A stretch of 50,042 bases of DNA from a virus (taxonomy: Duplodnaviria > Heunggongvirae > Uroviricota > Caudoviricetes): positions 1-50,042 of the IMG/VR virus record IMGVR_UViG_640753025_000001; one strand, 5' to 3'. The notes below the pieces were generated by a model. That model was not told where the DNA came from, made no database searches, and saw only the letters and a list, made by a program, of their open reading frames with translations. Made by a program: the position numbers and the translations under genes. Positions within the stretch are counted from its first letter, which is position 1, and the number at the start of each line of letters is the position of its first letter. This document shows, one piece after another, positions 37,408 to 44,673 of the stretch.

Positions 37408-38143
37408 TTGGTGCGCCGGACGGCGCAAAAAGAAAACCGCCAGTGTGCTGCTGGCGGCCTATGTCACACCCTTACTACCACATAAGGAATGCCTAATGAC
37501 TTTGAAGAATGTAGCAAACATCGGATCCGTTGTCACGGATAAAACCATTGACAGCCAAAGTCTTCTGATGATGGTTAATGAAGCTCGCAAGTTATGTGGA
37601 GAGCCATCAGTACGTAACAACAAATTCATCGAGAAAATTGAGGATGAATTGGAGGGCGAGACCTACACAAAAAGTGTAGGTCGGAAAAACGGGGCTGACA
37701 TTGATGTTATCTCCATGACTATCAAGCAGGCGCTTCGTGTTGCTGCTCGCGAATCTAAAGCAGTTCGCCGAACACTTGTAGACAAACTTGAAAGTATGCA
37801 AGAAGCGCACATTAAAAGCGGTAAATCGTCGAGTGGACTTGTTGAGTATCGCCAGGCTCGAACATTGAAAATGACGGTTGAAGCTGTTACCAATCTGTTA
37901 GATTTGATGCCAAATCTTGCGCCGGAAGCAAAGCAGACTGCGGCAGCAAGCATAATCAACCCGATAGTTGGTTTTAATGCAATACCTCTTCCAGCAATAG
38001 AAGAGCATTACTACTCAGCAGGGGAGGTTGCAGAGCAGCTTGGAGTAACGGCAAACAAGATTGGTCGCATTGCTAACGCAAACAACTGAATCGCCACGGG
38101 TTTAACAGACACCTCAGAGTCATTTAAGATGGCTTAAAGAGAG

Positions 38144-38428
38144 GTGCCCATGAGCGGTAAGCGTTATCCCGAAGAGTTTAAAACTGAAGCAGTCAAACAG
38201 GTTGTTGATCGCGGTTATTCTGTTGCCAGCGTTGCAACACGTCTCGATATCACCACCCACAGCCTTTATGCCTGGATAAAGAAGTACGGTCCGGATTCTT
38301 CCACTAATAAAGAACAGTCAGATGCTCAGGCCGAGATCCGCCGTCTCCAGAAAGAGCTGAAACGGGTTACCGACGAACGGGACATATTAAAAAAAGCCGC
38401 GGCGTACTTCGCAAAGCTGTCCGACTGA
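38144..38428 (+). CDS. IS3-family transposase OrfA
   Basis: Identical protein to 6326..6610. Confidence 0.9.
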   Translation: MPMSGKRYPEEFKTEAVKQVVDRGYSVASVATRLDITTHSLYAWIKKYGPDSSTNKEQSDAQAEIRRLQKELKRVTDERDILKKAAAYFAKLSD

Positions 38429-38484
38429 GGTACGCCTTTATCCGTGACAACTCCTGTTGCTGGCCTGTTCGCCTGCTCTGTCGG

Positions 38485-39297
38485 GTGCTGGATGTTCATC
38501 CCAGTGGTTTTTACGCCTGGCTTCAGCAGCCGCATTCACAACGCCATCAGGCAGACCTGAGACTGACAGGACAGATTAAACAGTTCTGGCTGGAATCGGG
38601 ATGCGTCTATGGTTATCGCAAAATCCATCTGGATTTGCGTGACAGCGGGCAACAGTGCGGAGTAAACAGAGTCTGGAGACTGATGAAACGTGTCGGAATA
38701 AAGGCTCAGGTCGGATACCGAAGCCCGCGGGCACGTAAAGGCGAGGCCAGTATCGTGTCACCCAACAGGCTCCAGCGACAGTTCAATCCGGATGCTCCTG
38801 ATGAGCGTTGGGTAACGGACATAACCTACATCAGGACCCACGAAGGCTGGCTGTATCTTGCCGTTGTTGTTGATCTGTTCTCACGCAAAATTATCGGCTG
38901 GTCCATGCAATCCCGGATGACAAAGGACATTGTCCTGAACGCACTGCTGATGGCTGTATGGCGGCGTAATCCCGAAAAACAGGTGCTGGTTCATTCGGAT
39001 CAGGGCAGTCAGTACACAAGCCATGAGTGGCAGTCGTTCCTGAAATCACACGGCCTGGAGGGTAGCATGAGCCGTCGCGGTAACTGCCATGATAATGCGG
39101 TTGCAGAAAGTTTTTTCCAGTTGTTGAAACGTGAACGGATAAAGAAAAAGATCTACGGAACGCGGGAAGAAGCCCGCAGTGATATTTTTGATTACATCGA
39201 AATGTTTTATAACAGTAAGCGTCGGCATGGTTCTAGCGAACAGATGTCACCGACAGAATATGAAAACCAGTATTATCAACGGCTCGGAAGTGTCTAG
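38485..39297 (+). CDS. IS3-family transposase OrfB
   Basis: Identical protein to 6667..7479. Confidence 0.9.
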   Translation: MLDVHPSGFYAWLQQPHSQRHQADLRLTGQIKQFWLESGCVYGYRKIHLDLRDSGQQCGVNRVWRLMKRVGIKAQVGYRSPRARKGEASIVSPNRLQRQFNPDAPDERWVTDITYIRTHEGWLYLAVVVDLFSRKIIGWSMQSRMTKDIVLNALLMAVWRRNPEKQVLVHSDQGSQYTSHEWQSFLKSHGLEGSMSRRGNCHDNAVAESFFQLLKRERIKKKIYGTREEARSDIFDYIEMFYNSKRRHGSSEQMSPTEYENQYYQRLGSV

Positions 39298-39471: not shown

Positions 39472-39497
39472 AAACCCGCTTAATCGCGGGTTTTTTC
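39472..39497 (+). terminator. rho-independent terminator ending the arc-ant operon
   Basis: Hairpin AAACCCGC-TTAATC-GCGGGTTT followed by TTTTC. Confidence 0.65.
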
Positions 39498-39767
39498 TTT
39501 CCTTAGAATTTCAGCCGCAACTTCTTTTACTCGTTCCGAGATTAATGAGGCCAGCCTCTCTTCTTCATCACGATACCCGCTTACAGGTGATGGTTTGGAG
39601 AGTGATTCTTCCATCGTAGCCACAATTTCAGAATTGATAGACCTGTTATTCATTTTTGCACGCTGCTTAATCTTAGCGTGCAACTCGTGTGTAAGCCTCA
39701 AGTGGAACTGCGCCTCATCGTATTTGCTGTACATCATCAATGCCTCACCAAATGGGTGGAATGGCAT
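39480..39767 (-). CDS. mnt: Mnt-like ribbon-helix-helix repressor
   Basis: 95-aa ORF; LRLTHELHAKIKQRAKMNNRSINSEIVATMEESLSKPSPVSGYRDEEERLA matches the P22 Mnt pattern as recalled; true start may be an internal Met. Confidence 0.65.
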   Translation of the reverse strand: MPFHPFGEALMMYSKYDEAQFHLRLTHELHAKIKQRAKMNNRSINSEIVATMEESLSKPSPVSGYRDEEERLASLISERVKEVAAEILRKEKTRD

Positions 39768-39867: not shown

Positions 39868-41778
39868 ATGACTGACACCAATTACCTGATCTCTATGCCG
39901 TCTACACCTTTTTCGGCGCCACGAGCATTTAAATCAGTGGCGAACGGGAAAATCTATATCGGAAACCCTGACACTGACCCGGTAAATCCTGCTAACCAAA
40001 TTCCGGTATATGCCGTTAATGAGAATGGATCCGAGGTTCAGGTTTCTCAGCCAATCATCATTAACGCTGGAGGCTTCCCTGTTTATAACGGGCAGATTAT
40101 GAAGTTCATCACCAAACAGAACTTCAGCATGGCGGTGTATGATGCATATGGGGCGCAGCAGTTTTACTGGATTAATGTTGCAAATATGGACCCAAACTCT
40201 GCGTATCTGGAAGCGGTTAATGATGTTCTTGCAATGCTGGGCTCAAGCGATGGCGCAAAACTGATAGGTGGAATGAGCTTTCTTACAGCGGAAATGTACT
40301 CTCATCTTGTTGAAGGGATGGACTGGAGGAAAGCAATTCAAGCTGCTATAGACCAAGCTCACCAGAACTATTTAGCCGGAAGCGGCCCAACCAATATTCT
40401 CATTGGAGGTGAATTCTCCGTTACTCTCAATCCTAATTCAACTTTGATACCTGGTGAGGTTGCTGCGGGTCGAGGTGCGCTGTGTATGCGTAGTGGTGTA
40501 ACACTGATGGGCGGCGGAGCAATCACGCTTGATGGCAATTTTACTGGCTCAGCCAGCGGCGCAATCATTACAAACTGGGAAGGCGCCGCCGATAACTGCA
40601 AGATTCAGGGGATCACGCTTAACGGCAGCCGTGGCACCGCTGCCGGAACGGGGATTACCTGCATTAATATCTTGGACTCGGATAATGTCACTATTGATAA
40701 CGTTAAGGCGATAGATAGCACTTCTGGAGGGATTTATTTACGCCGAGCTAACAATACGGTTTATGGCTGTTCTAACTCAAGAATTATGAACTGCTACGTT
40801 CACAACGTTGAATATATTGGCATTCAGTGTGAACGCCCCAACGGGATGACCATTACGGGATGTGCCGTAGCCTCCTGCGGTGATAATGGCATTGATATCT
40901 TTGGTAACGTAACTGACGAATCTGGACAGGGAGTTGCGGAGGATGTTGTTGTTAGTAATAACACTATCCGTGATGTAAGCGTAGGAGTGTTCATCGAATC
41001 ATGCGGAAACGTGGCAATATCTTCGTGCCGTATTTCAGGATTTAGTAACTCTGGTGTTTTCTTTAACCGGATAAATACAGCTGCGTATAATTGTTCTGTA
41101 ATTGGATGCACGATAACAGGGGCGGATATTACCTCCAGCCAGGGCATCCGCTGGAAGAATGCAGTTGGTTACACTCGCGTTTATAACAACACACTAAAAA
41201 ACTGTATTGACTCCTTTGTGACAACTGGAGGGATGATTTACGTTGATATTGGGGTGAATAACCATGAAAGCATTGGCAGGTGTTTTCTTTACGTTCCCAA
41301 AAAATCTAACGGATGTGTCTATACAAGAATGGTTCAGCAGGTCTACAACGGAGTTCAGACAGATGGCATACCGTACAACACGACACCTCGTGGTTGGCCA
41401 TCCGCAAACAACACTAGGTACTATCGCTGTTCATTCACCGCGCCGTACATGATGTATTCCGCTACGACTGGGGAAGATAACCTCATTCGGGCTACAGGCA
41501 ATTTGCCATTCAACAGTGGCTGGGGGCCTGCTTACTCGCTATACAATACGATTGTTTCTGGAGAAACAGTAATAGCCATGGGGAGCTCGCTACTGTCTGC
41601 CGGTGAATACATGCTAATAAACGGTTATTATTATTTAGTTTATAGCGTCACATCATCCTATGCTGTAGTAAGGAAATGGGATGTATCCAGTCAGGACTAT
41701 ATTGCCGGAGACTACACATCTTATTTAAATAGCGCATACGCATATTCCATCTTCAGAGCTGCTTGGGGAACACTATGA
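39868..41778 (+). CDS. tailspike protein (P22-type head-binding domain + divergent receptor-binding domain)
   Basis: 636 aa; N-terminal ~110 aa (FKSVANGKIYIGNPDTDPVNPANQIPVY) collinear with P22 gp9; remainder Gly/Asn/Ser/Thr-rich with repeated short strands. Confidence 0.88.
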   Translation: MTDTNYLISMPSTPFSAPRAFKSVANGKIYIGNPDTDPVNPANQIPVYAVNENGSEVQVSQPIIINAGGFPVYNGQIMKFITKQNFSMAVYDAYGAQQFYWINVANMDPNSAYLEAVNDVLAMLGSSDGAKLIGGMSFLTAEMYSHLVEGMDWRKAIQAAIDQAHQNYLAGSGPTNILIGGEFSVTLNPNSTLIPGEVAAGRGALCMRSGVTLMGGGAITLDGNFTGSASGAIITNWEGAADNCKIQGITLNGSRGTAAGTGITCINILDSDNVTIDNVKAIDSTSGGIYLRRANNTVYGCSNSRIMNCYVHNVEYIGIQCERPNGMTITGCAVASCGDNGIDIFGNVTDESGQGVAEDVVVSNNTIRDVSVGVFIESCGNVAISSCRISGFSNSGVFFNRINTAAYNCSVIGCTITGADITSSQGIRWKNAVGYTRVYNNTLKNCIDSFVTTGGMIYVDIGVNNHESIGRCFLYVPKKSNGCVYTRMVQQVYNGVQTDGIPYNTTPRGWPSANNTRYYRCSFTAPYMMYSATTGEDNLIRATGNLPFNSGWGPAYSLYNTIVSGETVIAMGSSLLSAGEYMLINGYYYLVYSVTSSYAVVRKWDVSSQDYIAGDYTSYLNSAYAYSIFRAAWGTL

Positions 41779-42026
41779 CTTACATGAAAGGTGATTACAT
41801 ATCGACGAACTCTCGCTATGGCGAATCGAAGGTAGGATGTTTTGCCTACATAGATGACACCGTGAAAGATGGAGATCTTTATATCAGTGCTATCGGAATT
41901 TATGATGGAGAGGGCAAGGAAAATAAAATATTCGATTTCAACGTAGTAACTCTCAGTGGAGAACCTGATGATGTGTTTTCTTTGGCTAAAGAAACATACC
42001 TGAGCAATTTCTCAATAATTGATTAA
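41775..42026 (+). CDS. small hypothetical protein translationally coupled to tailspike
   Basis: ATG at 41775 overlaps tailspike TGA (ATGA); 83 aa. Confidence 0.45.
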   Translation: MTYMKGDYISTNSRYGESKVGCFAYIDDTVKDGDLYISAIGIYDGEGKENKIFDFNVVTLSGEPDDVFSLAKETYLSNFSIID

Positions 42027-42207
42027 TAATCACCACTAGGCTTTGATGGCAGAGCATTTAAACCAATGAACCTTCCAGTGCCGTAGCCAATACTTCAACA
42101 GATGGAATTCATTGGCTGAACGCCAACAAAGTCATATGATTCAGTAACATTTCCGGTTACTACCATTGATAGTCGCAACATCTATTGATCTTCCCTTACA
42201 GTAAAAC

Positions 42208-42227
42208 TACTGTATATAAAAACAGTA
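42208..42227 (+). promoter_or_regulatory. LexA (SOS) box
   Basis: TACTGTATATAAAAACAGTA fits CTGT-N8-ACAG; 18 bp upstream of ATG 42246. Confidence 0.7.
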
Positions 42228-42245
42228 ATCATCAGAGGGAAGATC

Positions 42246-42485
42246 ATGCACCGTCAGTCAGACATCTATCAGGCTTTCCGCGAGTCGGTATTGCGCAACT
42301 CCAAAGGCTACCAGTATCTGCATACAAAGGATTTTGTGTCAGCGCTGCTCCGGCGTGGGCTGCACTTTACCGACTCAGAGGCTAATGCGTGGATATCTAG
42401 AGAGCAGACGTACTTTGTCGACAAAACCACCGACCATAGCGAAAACCGTTTGTGGATGATGGCTAACATGGGGAGGGTTTTGTAA
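42246..42485 (+). CDS. hypothetical protein, first gene of LexA-box operon
   Basis: 79-aa ORF after AGAGGGAAG; stop overlaps next start (TAATG). Confidence 0.55.
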   Translation: MHRQSDIYQAFRESVLRNSKGYQYLHTKDFVSALLRRGLHFTDSEANAWISREQTYFVDKTTDHSENRLWMMANMGRVL

Positions 42486-42802
42486 TGGGCTTTCCTTCAC
42501 CCGCAGCGGACTACGTCGAGCAGCGACTGTCCGTTAACTCGATATGCAATGTTGGTCCTAACACCCGCGTTTTCGAAAGGGATGGCGGTTATGTTGTGCT
42601 GGATATCTCCCTGAAGCCAAAGCAGGGTAGTCAGGTTCTGATCCAGCACGGCGGCGGGACTGAGCTTGCCACGTTGAGAGGGAGGGCCCTGATTACTGAA
42701 GACGGCGAAGCGATTGAAGGCGAGGCCCTGGATGATATCACTGTCGCCGGCGTGGTGACACACACCATCATCGATGTGAGAAGTGACAGCGTAGCGGTAT
42801 AA
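42485..42802 (+). CDS. UmuD'-like protein (S24 fold, no Ser/Lys dyad, starts at the UmuD' N-terminus)
   Basis: 105 aa starting MGFPSPAADYVEQR, the segment just after the UmuD Cys-Gly cleavage site; GDSM Ser and catalytic Lys positions not conserved. Confidence 0.6.
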   Translation: MGFPSPAADYVEQRLSVNSICNVGPNTRVFERDGGYVVLDISLKPKQGSQVLIQHGGGTELATLRGRALITEDGEAIEGEALDDITVAGVVTHTIIDVRSDSVAV

Positions 42803-42833
42803 GGCAGGCTTTTTAGTGGCCTGCCGCTTTTGA

Positions 42834-43064
42834 TTACTGTGTCTTTTCGTCCAGCCAGTCCGCCCACCACTGCATCATTTCTCTGCGTTTATCGAGATAC
42901 TGAGCATGGTTGTATATTCCACGCACAGATCCGCCGTTGGCATGAGCGAGTTGCACTTCGATAGTTTCGTGATGCACCAAGTGATCAAAGTAATGAAATT
43001 TAACATCCAAGCCTCCATCGATCGATACTTGCGGTAGTTGATAAGGAAAAACTATGGTACACAA
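42834..43064 (-). pseudogene. C-terminal fragment of a P4-type tyrosine integrase
   Basis: EVQLAHANGGSVRGIYNHAQYLDKRREMMQWWADWLD aligns with the C-terminus of the intact integrase at 43465..44673; no N-terminal/catalytic part. Confidence 0.6.
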
Positions 43065-43304: not shown

Positions 43305-43464
43305 CAAACTCTTCCCAAGTCTACCGAAATCAACTAAAAGCTCGTATACTGCGGTTTCTGGCCCGTATCTTATCTCCTGTTATCAACTAGACTCAACCGA
43401 AATCAAGTCGCAGTTGGGGGCATAAGTGGGGGCATTTTGTGTTCGGTCTAGGGAGATGCCCCCA

Positions 43465-44673
43465 ATGAAACTTAATGCGCGACAGGTAGACGCAGCTAAA
43501 CCCAGAGAGAAAGCCTATAAGCTGGCAGATGGTGCTGGTTTGTATCTTGAGGTTGTTCCCTCTGGTTCCAGATACTGGCGGATGAAATATCGCTTCAATG
43601 GAAAAGAGAAGCGTATGGCCTTTGGTGTCTATCCGGCAGTGTCCCTTGCACAAGCGAGGGCACTGCGTGACGACGCCAAGAAAAAGCTTGCCGAAGGTAT
43701 CGATCCATCGCTTGCCAAGAAAGAAGAAAAGCTGGTTCGAGATGTGCAGCTAAATAATACGTTTCAGGCTGTGGCACTTGAATGGCATGGAACGAAGGTG
43801 AGCCGATGGTCAGAAGGTTATGCCTCGGACATTATCGAAGCCTTTAATAAAGATATTTTTCCCTATATTGGCCAACAACCGGTGAATGAAATCAAACCGC
43901 TGGTTCTGCTTAATGTGCTGCGTCGAATTGAAAGCCGTGGCGCGACAGAGAAGGCCAAGAAGGTTCGCCAGCGTTGCAGCGAAGTCTTTCGTTACGCCAT
44001 CGTAACCGGTCGTGCGGAATACAATCCTGCAGCGGATCTTACCAGCGCGATGTCAGGGCATGAATCGAAGCATTATCCCTTCCTTACTGTTGAGGAGTTA
44101 CCAGACTTTTTTAAAGCTCTCGCAGGCTACACAGGAAGCCCGTTAGTTGTTCTTGCGGCACGTCTGCTGATCCTCACGGGAGTTCGCACTGGCGAACTCC
44201 GAGGTGCTTTCTGGAGTGAGTTTGATCTTGAAAAAGCGGTGTGGGAGATACCTGCCGAGCGTATGAAGATGAAACGGCCTCACCTTGTCCCCCTCTCTAC
44301 CCAAGCGCTGGAAATCGTACAGCAACTCAAAGTGATGTCAGGGCAATATCCACTGGTGTTCCCGGGACGTAATGATCCCCGCAAGACGATGAGTGAAGCG
44401 AGTATTAATCAGGTTTTTAAGCGGATTGGATATACGGGGAGGGTAACGGGGCATGGTTTCCGTCACACGATGAGTACGATTTTGCATGAGGAAGGTTTCA
44501 ATACAGCGTGGATTGAAACCCAGCTGGCTCACGTTGATAAAAATGCGATTCGTGGGACGTATAACCATGCGTTGTATTTGGAAGGACGTAGGGAGATGAT
44601 GCAGTGGTATGCGGACTATATAAACGCTAATCATAATTCATGTATTTCTTTGCTGGTGAACGCTACAAAGTAG
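43465..44673 (+). CDS. int: tyrosine integrase, P4 type
   Basis: ATG at 43465 after GGGAGA; catalytic HGFRHT and RGTYNHALY regions; begins 160 bp after the tRNA 3' repeat, reading away from it. Confidence 0.9.
   Translation: MKLNARQVDAAKPREKAYKLADGAGLYLEVVPSGSRYWRMKYRFNGKEKRMAFGVYPAVSLAQARALRDDAKKKLAEGIDPSLAKKEEKLVRDVQLNNTFQAVALEWHGTKVSRWSEGYASDIIEAFNKDIFPYIGQQPVNEIKPLVLLNVLRRIESRGATEKAKKVRQRCSEVFRYAIVTGRAEYNPAADLTSAMSGHESKHYPFLTVEELPDFFKALAGYTGSPLVVLAARLLILTGVRTGELRGAFWSEFDLEKAVWEIPAERMKMKRPHLVPLSTQALEIVQQLKVMSGQYPLVFPGRNDPRKTMSEASINQVFKRIGYTGRVTGHGFRHTMSTILHEEGFNTAWIETQLAHVDKNAIRGTYNHALYLEGRREMMQWYADYINANHNSCISLLVNATK

What the first reader, a model, noticed from the sequence alone, without database searches (positions are those of the whole stretch)
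39868..42026. Mosaic tailspike plus a translationally coupled small gene
The first ~110 residues match the conserved P22-type head-binding domain, while the rest is a different Gly/Asn/Thr-rich domain, the usual signature of receptor-specificity swapping. An 83-aa ORF overlaps the tailspike stop (ATGA at 41775), which is not part of the P22 layout as I recall it. It could be an assembly factor or a small moron.
Basis: partly seen in the sequence, partly recalled or inferred. Interest (0 to 1): 0.4.

Follow-up and report, generated by a model that had tools for sequence, protein, structure and literature searches.

The report
Chimeric tailspike with coupled orphan partner gene
A prophage of the gut commensal E. 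coli HS carries a tailspike made of a P22-type attachment domain fused to a Klebsiella-phage capsule-depolymerase body. The small overlapping gene behind it is a real, conserved orphan gene that always follows this depolymerase body from phage to phage, so it is probably a dedicated partner, though its function is unproven.

Summary
Both observations are correct. The window is E. coli HS prophage phiHS4, a P22-like phage.

**Tailspike (39868-41778).**
- Residues 4-110 are a P22/Sf6 head-binding domain (Pfam E=1e-44).
- Residues ~116-636 are a beta-helix receptor-binding body (RBD). It is 82-95% identical to RBDs in Klebsiella-group phages and prophages, and 44% identical to the proven K47 capsule depolymerase Dep42.

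**The 83-aa ORF (41775-42026).**
- It is a real gene, with dN/dS of 0.12-0.30.
- The TATGA overlap and a GGGG Shine-Dalgarno-like motif are kept in all 15 cassettes examined.
- It occurs only behind this RBD clade. Every clade member checked has it: more than 16 contexts and at least 8 phage backbones, lytic and temperate.
- Homology between backbones starts in the tailspike linker and ends 3 nt after the small ORF's stop.
- It is an acidic, cytoplasmic orphan protein. The AlphaFold2 model is confident (pLDDT 93), but it has no relative of known function by sequence or fold.

**Two complications.**
- More distant RBD relatives (44-58% identity) lack the gene.
- Near-identical RBDs carry alleles only 52% identical, with a breakpoint at the overlap.

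**Reading.** The best reading is a co-translated accessory or assembly partner of this tailspike (about 0.45). The rivals are conflict-type cargo or a receptor-linked function. The mosaic tailspike is ordinary and already noted in a 2026 preprint; the small gene has not been described.

The parts
39877..40197 (+). Tailspike residues 4-110: P22/Sf6-type head-binding (virion attachment) domain
   Evidence: Pfam PF09008 E=1.1e-44. PDB sequence hits Sf6 gp14 and P22 gp9 cover residues 4-117 only. It is shared at 82-99% nt identity with hundreds of E. coli P22-like prophages up to about 40163-40170.
40163..40262 (+). Linker and left recombination junction of the cassette
   Evidence: E. coli P22-like homology ends at 40163-40170. 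Homology to the Klebsiella cassettes begins at 40221 (L007), 40237 (L003) or 40262 (RCIP0012).
40213..41778 (+). Tailspike residues 116-636: receptor-binding body (beta-helix plus C-terminal beta-sandwich), a probable capsule depolymerase
   Evidence: It is 83% identical to the C-terminus of Klebsiella phage RCIP0012 gp202 and 82-95% identical to more than 30 clusters with many different N-termini. It is 44% identical over 515 aa to the K47 depolymerase Dep42/Dpo42 (PMC6901502, PMC7034173). The AlphaFold2 model has pLDDT 86; its fold resembles the AlgE4 A-module and the HK620 and Sf6 tailspikes.
41765..41769 (+). Shine-Dalgarno-like GGGGA inside the last tailspike codons, 5 nt upstream of the small ORF's ATG
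   Evidence: Read directly from the sequence. GGGG[A/G/T] is present at the same place in all 15 cassettes.
41775..41778 (+). ATGA start/stop overlap (translational coupling signal)
   Evidence: Read directly from the sequence. TATGA is conserved in 15 of 15 cassettes across allele types.
41775..42026 (+). 83-aa acidic orphan protein (pI 4.2, net charge about -8, no signal peptide), the obligate neighbour of this RBD clade
   Evidence: Homologues. Always directly behind this RBD. dN/dS 0.12-0.30. AlphaFold2 pLDDT 92.9 with order beta-beta-beta-beta-alpha-beta. No family, PDB or fold match with a known function.
42027..42029 (+). Right end of the mobile cassette
   Evidence: Nucleotide homology to L003 and L007 ends at 42029, 3 nt after the stop. 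Sliding identity falls to background after the small ORF.
39480..39767 (-). Arc-family repressor gene (immI-like region) upstream of and divergent from the tailspike; context only
   Evidence: Pfam Arc E=4.8e-15; RefSeq annotation.
42246..42825 (+). Downstream 79-aa and 105-aa (UmuD-like) gene pair with a terminator; context, probably the end of the transcription unit
   Evidence: phrog_3893 and phrog_3469. The first + strand terminator-like site after the tailspike is at 42803-42825, and none lies between the tailspike and the small ORF.

Best explanation
This is the receptor-binding cassette of the P22-like prophage phiHS4 of E. coli HS.

**Shown**
- The tailspike is a chimera. A P22/Sf6-type head-binding domain is joined through a linker to a beta-helix capsule-depolymerase-type body that circulates among Klebsiella-group phages.
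- The 83-aa gene is a real gene under purifying selection.
- The unit that moves between phage backbones is "RBD plus small gene".

**Inferred**
- The small gene is translated from the tailspike mRNA by termination-reinitiation, using the ATGA overlap and the SD-like GGGGA inside the last tailspike codons. The protein is therefore made late and together with the tailspike.
- This acidic cytoplasmic alpha/beta protein then acts on the tailspike body. It may act as a holdase or assembly helper for the RBD, or as an accessory subunit that docks on it.
- The conserved core and the RYG / FNVGT motifs would carry that contact, and the variable loops would not.
- The receptor of the RBD is probably a Klebsiella-type K47 (or K47-like) capsule.
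For: **Linkage**
- Every member of the small-protein family for which a genomic context was retrieved lies directly behind an RBD 82-95% identical to the window's, always with a 4-nt overlap.
- The backbones are: P22-like (window, E. coli A3, XJ23PTE1); siphovirus-like Klebsiella prophages; a second Klebsiella/Samsonia prophage type; prophages with a Tail_spike_N anchor; a T7-terminase-type prophage; an N4/SU10-like 72-kb phage; and the 160-kb lytic phage RCIP0012.
- Conversely, every RBD of this clade that was checked has the gene.

**Cassette boundaries.** Homology runs from the tailspike linker to 3 nt past the small ORF's stop.

**Replacement, not loss.** L016 and L026 have RBDs 98-100% identical in nucleotides right up to the stop codon. 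Their small-ORF alleles are only 52% identical. Recombination at the junction swapped one allele for another rather than removing the gene.

**Coupling signals.** TATGA and the GGGG motif are conserved in 15 of 15 cassettes. No promoter-like or terminator-like site separates the two genes.

**Position in lytic phages.** The gene lies inside the tailspike gene cluster, between tailspike genes.

**Real protein.** dN/dS is 0.12-0.30 and the AlphaFold2 fold is confident, pLDDT 92.9.

**Precedent from established knowledge.** Fibre genes are followed by their chaperone genes: T4 g37-g38, lambda stf-tfa, P2 H-G.

**Receptor**
- The RBD is 44% identical to Dep42/Dpo42, which are experimentally K47-specific.
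- All four E. coli records with this tailspike are among only 13 of 20,395 records that carry the K47 wzx-wzy genes. The prophages sit in different chromosomal contexts.
Against: - **Relatives do without it.** RBD homologues at 58% (T7-like, L024), 46% (P22-like, L025) and 44% (Przondovirus Dep42) identity have no such gene. Dep42 is active when expressed alone in E. coli (PMC6901502). The fold therefore does not need a helper in general.
- **Weak co-variation.** Near-identical RBDs work with alleles only 52% identical, so there is little sign of a co-evolving interface.
- **Lower G+C.** The small ORF has 35-42% G+C against 43-49% for the RBD, as accessory cargo often has.
- **No known relative.** It resembles no known chaperone, and no fusion to a tailspike was found among 1.84 billion representative proteins.
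- **No direct evidence.** No binding evidence could be produced here, because no multimer prediction was available.
- **Receptor.** The preprint 10.64898/2026.05.19.726188 found no plaques of induced phiHS4 on cured HS or on a K47 Klebsiella.
Confidence: 0.45

Rival explanations
1. Conflict-type cargo. The small protein would be an anti-defence or superinfection-exclusion factor that sits in the variable slot behind the tailspike gene and is carried along with the RBD cassette. It would have no action on the tailspike itself.
For: - It is small and very acidic (pI about 4.1-4.3), as many phage inhibitor proteins are.
- It has anciently diverged allele types that are shuffled by recombination with sharp boundaries.
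- Its G+C is lower than its neighbour's.
- In the prophage it lies in the accessory region next to the attachment-site end, beside a moron-like 79/105-aa pair.
- RBD relatives do without it.
Against: - It is never found away from this one RBD clade, and never missing from it, across at least 8 backbones with saturated dS. Recombination at the junction replaces it rather than losing it.
- It has no promoter or terminator of its own, and the start/stop overlap is conserved.
- In lytic phages it is embedded in the late tailspike cluster, not in early regions.
- There is no PADLOC hit, although that library covers defence rather than anti-defence.
Confidence: 0.25
2. Receptor-linked function. The protein would act on the host's capsule pathway, for example by damping synthesis or export of the polysaccharide that this RBD recognises. 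That would stop progeny being trapped, or exclude phages of the same specificity. It would be a cytoplasmic analogue of the T5 llp-pb5 pairing, or of the O-antigen conversion genes next to P22-like tailspikes.
For: - It is strictly coupled to a receptor-specificity module rather than to a phage backbone.
- Genes that mask or modify the receptor are known to sit next to RBP genes (established knowledge: T5 llp/oad, P22 gtrABC).
- The 83-aa gene has been found only in phages and prophages of capsule- or EPS-rich Enterobacterales (Klebsiella species, Samsonia, K47 E. coli).
- Other, sequence-unrelated small ORFs behind tailspikes occur in phages of Klebsiella, Serratia, Erwinia and Enterobacter and in the O101-specific coliphage Mimir124.
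Against: - It has no signal peptide, lipobox or membrane segment.
- It is made late and coupled to a structural gene.
- Other K47-directed RBDs lack it: Dep42, and the tailspike of the P22-like prophage in the K47 strain AR Bank #0346.
- The receptor itself is only inferred.
Confidence: 0.15
3. Virion component. The protein would stay bound to the distal (C-terminal) domains of the tailspike in the particle and contribute to receptor contact, as gp38 does at the fibre tip of T2-type phages.
For: - Coupled translation suggests production in proportion to the tailspike (inference).
- DepoCatalog (PMC13385381) models the Dep42 class with three separate, non-trimerised C-terminal domains (a 'tripod'), which would leave free surfaces.
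- The AlphaFold2 model here has a separate C-terminal beta-sandwich after a low-confidence linker.
Against: - No virion proteome is available.
- Dep42-type enzymes bind and cut capsule on their own (PMC6901502).
- Alleles 52% identical pair with identical RBDs.
Confidence: 0.1
4. Not a gene: a chance ORF in the 3' region of the tailspike transcript.
For: It is short, has no family assignment, and has low G+C.
Against: - It is conserved as an intact ORF of 83-84 codons (up to 88 as called) down to 36-38% identity.
- dN/dS is well below 1.
- The start context is conserved.
- The predicted fold is confident.
Confidence: 0.02

Closest known systems
P22 gp9 / Sf6 gp14 / HK620 tailspikes (P22-like podovirus tailspikes)
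   Same: - The N-terminal head-binding domain is shared (Pfam E=1e-44; PDB hits to residues 4-117).
- The gene sits after the ejection-protein genes and the immI-like region of a P22-like prophage.
- The body is a right-handed beta-helix, and Foldseek hits HK620 and Sf6.
   Different: - The body has no sequence similarity to theirs (12-15% identity in structural alignments).
- Its sequence relatives are Klebsiella capsule depolymerases, not O-antigen endoglycosidases.
- Those phages have no coupled small gene behind the tailspike.
K47 capsule depolymerase Dep42 (phage SH-KP152226) / Dpo42 (IME205), Przondovirus
   Same: It is 44% identical over 515 residues, covering the whole body including the C-terminal domain. 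These enzymes are experimentally K47-specific (PMC6901502, PMC7034173), and every E. coli host of this prophage tailspike carries K47 cps genes.
   Different: - The N-terminal anchor is T7-type rather than P22-type.
- No small ORF follows: there is an 18-nt gap and then the second RBP gene.
- Identical specificity is not shown at 44% identity.
Tail-fibre assembly chaperones encoded just downstream of fibre genes (T4 gp38, lambda/Mu Tfa, P2 gpG)
   Same: The layout is the same: a small gene directly behind the receptor-binding gene, exchanged together with the receptor-binding end of that gene.
   Different: - There is no sequence, Pfam or fold similarity.
- It is half their size.
- The client would be a beta-helix tailspike rather than a fibre. 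Such spikes are generally thought to fold unaided or with an intramolecular chaperone.
phrog_7836: ~86-91-aa proteins of unknown function behind tailspike or depolymerase genes (Taipeivirus UPM 2146 and RCIP0012, Gamaleyavirus Mimir124, Erwinia phage Pavtok)
   Same: Size, acidity and position match. They sit directly after a tailspike gene, and in RCIP0012 and the N4-like contig L012 they sit in the same gene cluster as this family.
   Different: No profile-profile similarity was found (hhalign probability below 1%). They follow at least four unrelated RBD types rather than one, and are separated by a short spacer instead of an overlap.

Membership tests
P22-like tailspike (gp9 family) | N-terminal head-binding domain (PF09008) | tested here: met
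   Residues 4-110, E=1.1e-44. PDB hits to Sf6 gp14 and P22 gp9 N-domains.
P22-like tailspike (gp9 family) | Right-handed parallel beta-helix body | tested here: met
   PF13229 at residues 298-449. AlphaFold2 model with pLDDT 86 and Foldseek hits to the HK620 and Sf6 tailspikes at E about 1e-8 to 1e-9.
P22-like tailspike (gp9 family) | Gene position after the ejection-protein genes and immI region of a P22-like genome | tested here: met
   The RefSeq annotation of the HS locus lists P22 capsid, gp4, gp10, needle, DNA-transfer proteins, Arc and then the tailspike.
P22-like tailspike (gp9 family) | Trimeric, binds the virion, cleaves the receptor polysaccharide | not testable with these tools
   This needs biochemistry. 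The preprint 10.64898/2026.05.19.726188 saw podovirus particles after induction but no plaques.
Dep42/Dpo42-type K47 capsule depolymerase | Sequence homology across the whole enzymatic body | tested here: met
   tblastn gives 44% identity over residues 5-519 of the 521-residue body, E about 1e-119.
Dep42/Dpo42-type K47 capsule depolymerase | Activity on K47 capsule | not testable with these tools
   The evidence is circumstantial. All 4 E. coli records with this tailspike are among the 13 of 20,395 that carry K47 wzx-wzy. Against it, the HS lysate gave no plaques on K47 strains in the preprint.
Tail-fibre assembly chaperone (Tfa/gp38 type) | Sequence or fold membership (e.g. Pfam Caudo_TAP) | tested here: not met
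Tail-fibre assembly chaperone (Tfa/gp38 type) | Encoded directly downstream of the RBP gene and exchanged together with its receptor-binding end | tested here: met
Tail-fibre assembly chaperone (Tfa/gp38 type) | Required for folding or trimerisation of the RBP | not testable with these tools
   This needs co-expression or genetics. Relatives at 44-58% identity lack the gene.
Intramolecular chaperone tailspikes (Peptidase_S74 C-terminal domain) | C-terminal S74 auto-cleaving chaperone domain | tested here: not met
   No such Pfam hit in the tailspike. The C-terminus is a beta-sandwich.
Moron (autonomous promoter-gene-terminator unit) | Own promoter and terminator flanking the gene | tested here: not met
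   No promoter-like site lies just upstream and no terminator just downstream; the start overlaps the tailspike stop. These are simple consensus scans only.
phrog_7836 (small proteins behind tailspikes) | HMM or profile match | tested here: not met
   No PHROG hit for the window protein. hhalign of A4 against A5 gives probability 0.04%.
Receptor-masking lipoproteins next to RBP genes (T5 Llp, Cor) | Signal peptide with lipobox | tested here: not met
   The N-terminus MTYMKGDYISTNSRYGES is polar and GRAVY is -0.24. The only Cys (C22) has no hydrophobic leader before it.

The most novel reading that the evidence does not exclude
The 83-aa protein would be the first recognised example of a wider, unstudied class of small acidic proteins encoded directly behind beta-helix capsule-depolymerase tailspikes. 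The class would also include phrog_7836 and the 48-50-aa ORFs of phiEap-2 and IME250. These proteins would act in trans as needed partners of the spikes, in folding, solubility or as a subunit. Leaving them out would be one reason why most prophage depolymerases fail to express on their own (34 of 50 in PMC13123978).
Probability: 0.25. Interest if true: 0.7.

Novelty: new variant of a known kind. Interest (0 to 1): 0.45.

Why it matters
Capsule depolymerases are being developed as antivirulence agents, typing reagents and swappable host-range modules. The unit that nature exchanges here is not the depolymerase body alone but the body plus a coupled 83-aa gene. If the small protein is needed for production or function, then engineering and recombinant expression of such spikes should carry it along.

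That would give a concrete, testable lead for the unexplained failure of many prophage depolymerases to express. If it instead acts on the host or on rival phages, it is a new receptor-linked accessory function.

The chimeric tailspike itself is a routine case of receptor-module swapping. It is already noted for phiHS4 in a 2026 preprint.

Tried and rejected
**Family and structure searches for the small protein: nothing usable**
- Pfam, PHROGs, NCBIfam and PADLOC gave no hit.
- A PDB profile search gave nothing below E=0.78.
- Foldseek against BFVD returned only uncharacterised ~85-100-aa phage proteins, best E=2e-3.
- The afdb50 library was unavailable.

**Whole-library HMM search (1.84 billion representatives)**
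- It found four clusters of true homologues and no fusion to a larger protein.
- The two long 'hits' (P0008, P0011) are low-complexity repeat translations and were discarded.

**Homology to other small ORFs behind tailspikes**
- Homology to phrog_7836 and to the 93-aa ORF of IME250 was tested by hhalign and rejected.

**Frameshift extension of the tailspike**
- This was considered and rejected. The ORF is in the -1 frame, but it has its own conserved ATG and SD-like motif, and no slippery heptamer lies at the junction.

**RNA elements**
- Rfam gave only sub-threshold hits at the terminator at 39472-39493.

**Literature**
- Searches for a trans-acting tailspike or depolymerase chaperone, or any mention of these small ORFs, found nothing.

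**Complex model**
Full report
**1. Observation**

The ORF at 39868-41778 (+) encodes 636 aa. An ATG at 41775 overlaps its TGA stop (ATGA) and opens an 83-aa ORF ending at 42026. Pfam places a Head_binding domain at residues 4-110 (E=1.1e-44) and a Beta_helix domain at 298-449. PDB sequence matches (Sf6 gp14, P22 gp9) cover residues 4-117 only. The remainder has 11.9% Gly, 9.4% Ser, 8.4% Asn and 7.9% Thr.

**2. Source and surroundings**

- The window is 100% identical to the chromosome of E. coli HS.
- The annotated locus is the right arm of a P22-like prophage. In order it carries the capsid gene, gp4, gp10, the needle, DNA-transfer proteins and an immI-like region with an Arc-family gene. Then come the tailspike, the 83-aa ORF (WP_000221849.1, 'hypothetical'), a 79-aa and a 105-aa gene, an integrase fragment, a second integrase and a BREX island.
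- A 2026 preprint (10.64898/2026.05.19.726188) names this prophage phiHS4.
  - It is inducible and makes podovirus particles that form no plaques.
  - Its tailspike clusters with those of Klebsiella Przondovirus phages.
  - HS carries a Klebsiella-type K47 capsule and the O9 antigen.
  - The preprint does not mention the small ORF.

**3. The tailspike is a chimera with a defined junction**

- About 300 E. coli genomes share the arc gene and the head-binding domain at 82-99% nucleotide identity. That homology stops at window 40163-40170, about residue 100.
- Homology to Klebsiella phages and prophages starts at 40221-40262.
- The body (residues 116-636) is 83% identical to the C-terminal 521 residues of gp202 of the 160-kb lytic Klebsiella phage RCIP0012.
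- It is 82-95% identical to more than 30 protein clusters. These range in length from 636 to 943 aa and carry many different N-terminal anchors, including P22 head-binding and Tail_spike_N.
- The AlphaFold2 model of the body has pLDDT 86. It shows a beta-helix followed, after a low-confidence stretch, by a C-terminal beta-sandwich.
- The nearest solved folds are the AlgE4 epimerase A-module and the HK620 and Sf6 tailspikes, at 12-17% identity. No close structure exists.

**4. Probable receptor**

- In the phage collection, after RCIP0012, the next relatives are Przondovirus tail-fibre proteins at 44% identity over the whole body (SH-KP152226 ORF42, IME205 and others).
- Dep42 and Dpo42 are experimentally K47-specific depolymerases and are active when produced alone (PMC6901502, PMC7034173).
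- The K47 wzx-wzy genes of HS occur in only 13 of 20,395 E. coli records. All four records that carry this tailspike (two HS assemblies, A3, XJ23PTE1) are among them.
- The prophages lie in different contexts. A3 has it next to intS and tRNA-Arg. XJ23PTE1 has it next to dacD/sbmC with a different immI region. HS has it next to an integrase fragment and the BREX island.
- This fits K47 or K47-like tropism but does not prove it, because the strains may be related and the preprint saw no plaques on K47 hosts.

**5. The small ORF is a real gene**

- Searches of 5.8 billion and 1.84 billion proteins find a tiny family: 16 clusters at 90% identity and about five at 50%. Members are 83-90 aa and come mostly from Klebsiella.
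- Pairwise dN/dS is 0.12-0.30 where dS is measurable. The adjoining RBD gives about 0.05.
- All 15 cassettes examined keep TATGA at the junction and a GGGG[A/G/T] motif whose last base lies 5 nt before the ATG.
- The protein is acidic (pI 4.05-4.3, net charge -5 to -11) and has no signal peptide.
- AlphaFold2 gives a confident small alpha/beta fold: pLDDT 92.9, four strands, a helix at 64-74 and a last strand.

**6. Linkage to the RBD**

- In every context retrieved, the small gene lies directly behind an RBD of this clade with the 4-nt overlap. The contexts are:
  - siphovirus-like prophages (L003-L006);
  - a second prophage type in Klebsiella and Samsonia (L007-L010, L026, L037);
  - prophages with a Tail_spike_N anchor (L016, L017);
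  - a T7-terminase-type prophage (L014, L027);
  - an N4/SU10-like 72-kb phage (L011, L012);
  - RCIP0012 (L002);
  - seven IMG/VR contigs (L030-L036);
  - three E. coli P22-like prophages.
- Between backbones the nucleotide homology ends at 42029, 3 nt after the stop.
- In the lytic phages the gene sits between tailspike genes.
- RBD homologues outside the clade behave differently:
  - at 58% identity (T7-like, L024), no small ORF;
  - at 46% (P22-like, L025), no small ORF;
  - at 44% (Dep42), no small ORF;
  - at 35-40% (phiEap-2, Serratia IME250), a different overlapping 48-50-aa acidic helical ORF.

**7. Allele shuffling**

- The small protein is far more divergent (36-89% identity) than the RBD (82-96%).
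- Sliding-window comparison shows this is not simply faster drift.
  - L016 and L026 are 98-100% identical in nucleotides from 40485 to the tailspike stop. Identity then drops within one window to 50-60% through the small ORF.
  - The window and L026 show the reverse: the small ORF is 88-94% identical and the RBD 68-90%.
- There are at least three old allele types. Type A covers the window, L003, L007 and L026. Type B covers L016, L014 and L027, with RCIP0012 nearest to this type. Type C covers L011 and L012.
- These types recombine behind near-identical RBDs, with a breakpoint at the overlap. Presence is kept; the particular allele is not.

**8. No known relative**

- Pfam, PHROGs, NCBIfam, PADLOC and a PDB profile search give nothing.
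- BFVD returns only uncharacterised phage proteins of similar size.
- No fusion to a larger protein was found.

**9. Similar arrangements elsewhere**

- phrog_7836 proteins (86-91 aa, function unknown) lie directly behind other tailspike or depolymerase genes. Examples are RCIP0012, Taipeivirus UPM 2146, Gamaleyavirus Mimir124, Erwinia phage Pavtok, and the N4-like contig that also carries this family.
- They show no profile similarity to the 83-aa family.
- They follow at least four unrelated RBD types.
- No paper in the library discusses any of these small ORFs.

**10. Mechanism**

*Shown:* a chimeric tailspike; a conserved coding gene; a mobile unit consisting of RBD plus small gene; conserved coupling signals; and no promoter-like or terminator-like site between the two genes, the first terminator-like site being at 42803-42825.

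*Inferred:*
- Translation occurs by termination-reinitiation, so the protein is produced together with the tailspike.
- Selection acts on the presence of the gene, because recombination replaces it and never removes it.
- The best-fitting role is a dedicated accessory or assembly partner of this RBD clade (confidence about 0.45). It parallels fibre-chaperone gene pairs such as T4 g37-g38, lambda stf-tfa and P2 H-G.

*Main objections:* relatives at 44-58% identity lack the gene, co-variation with the RBD is weak, and the G+C content is lower.

*Rivals:*
- conflict-type cargo (0.25);
- a receptor-linked action on the capsule pathway (0.15);
- a virion-bound subunit (0.1);
- a chance ORF (0.02).

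**11. Verdict**

- The mosaic tailspike is ordinary and already noted for phiHS4.
- The coupled gene is an undescribed orphan with an unusually strict association with one depolymerase body.
- It is a concrete lead for experiments on tailspike production, given that 34 of 50 prophage depolymerases failed to express alone (PMC13123978).
- Its function remains unproven.

Noticed in passing
window 38144-39297 (IS3 family element), splitting the gene that starts at 37445: An IS3 element interrupts an immI-region gene between the ejection-protein genes and the tailspike. The same prophage in E. coli A3 has that gene intact (242 aa) and an intact intS beside tRNA-Arg. The insertion could bear on why induced phiHS4 particles are non-infectious in the 2026 preprint.
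   Followed up: partly
window 42112-42825: A 79-aa (phrog_3893) and a 105-aa UmuD-like (phrog_3469) gene pair has a promoter-like site (42112-42140) and a terminator-like hairpin (42803-42825). Its G+C is 53.5%, against 37-46% next door. This is a classical moron layout, shared at 80-83% nucleotide identity with Klebsiella prophages L003-L006.
   Followed up: partly
L002 10234-10509 and 12957-13220; L012 10611-10871; L018 4001-4267; L019 4001-4336; L020 6001-6261: phrog_7836 proteins (86-91 aa as a rule; Pavtok gp17, L019 4001-4336, is 111 aa; function unknown) are encoded directly after tailspike or depolymerase genes in Taipeivirus, Gamaleyavirus and Erwinia phage Pavtok, behind at least four unrelated receptor-binding bodies. 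They appear never to have been studied.
   Followed up: partly
L003-L006 8285-8557 (- strand), L007 8285-8557, L026 5492-5764; absent at window 42030-42083: In several Klebsiella and Samsonia prophages an orphan 90-aa gene lies on the opposite strand just after the 83-aa gene, with no tailspike of its own. The L003 copy matches phrog_7836 (E=1.4e-07). It may be a remnant of another cassette. E. coli HS lacks it.
   Followed up: no
L022 4051-4203 (Enterobacter phage phiEap-2); L023 4021-4167 and 1762-2043 (Serratia phage IME250): Distant homologues of the receptor-binding body (35-40% identity) are followed by a different overlapping 48-50-aa acidic helical ORF (M-[IK]-[VI]-SDMTK...). A neighbouring IME250 tailspike is followed by an acidic 93-aa ORF.
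   Followed up: partly
L039 46106-49713 (E. coli HS K47-type wzx-wzy): K47-type capsule genes occur in only 13 of 20,395 E. coli records. All records with this tailspike cassette are among them, although the prophages sit at different chromosomal sites.
   Followed up: yes
L014 5843-8264 (Klebsiella michiganensis): The tailspike of this clade is split by a frameshift (615 + 109 aa), while the downstream small gene is intact and identical to that of L027.
   Followed up: no
window 40485-41789 compared with L003, L016, L026, L027, L012: The receptor-binding body is itself a patchwork. Between pairs of cassettes, blocks of 97-100% nucleotide identity alternate with blocks of 66-80%, which indicates frequent recombination inside the gene as well as at its ends.
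   Followed up: partly
window 39472-39493: A bidirectional terminator-like hairpin lies between the IS3 element and the arc gene, upstream of the tailspike. Rfam gives only sub-threshold RyhB/isrK-like scores there (23.5 and 18.6 bits against gathering scores of 55 and 50), which are taken as noise.
   Followed up: yes
window 42834-42968 (- strand) and 43426-44673 (+ strand): A short integrase remnant, full length as intS in E. coli A3, is followed by a second, intact tyrosine integrase, a methyltransferase and a BREX island. The prophage end appears to have been remodelled by insertion of a defence island.
   Followed up: no
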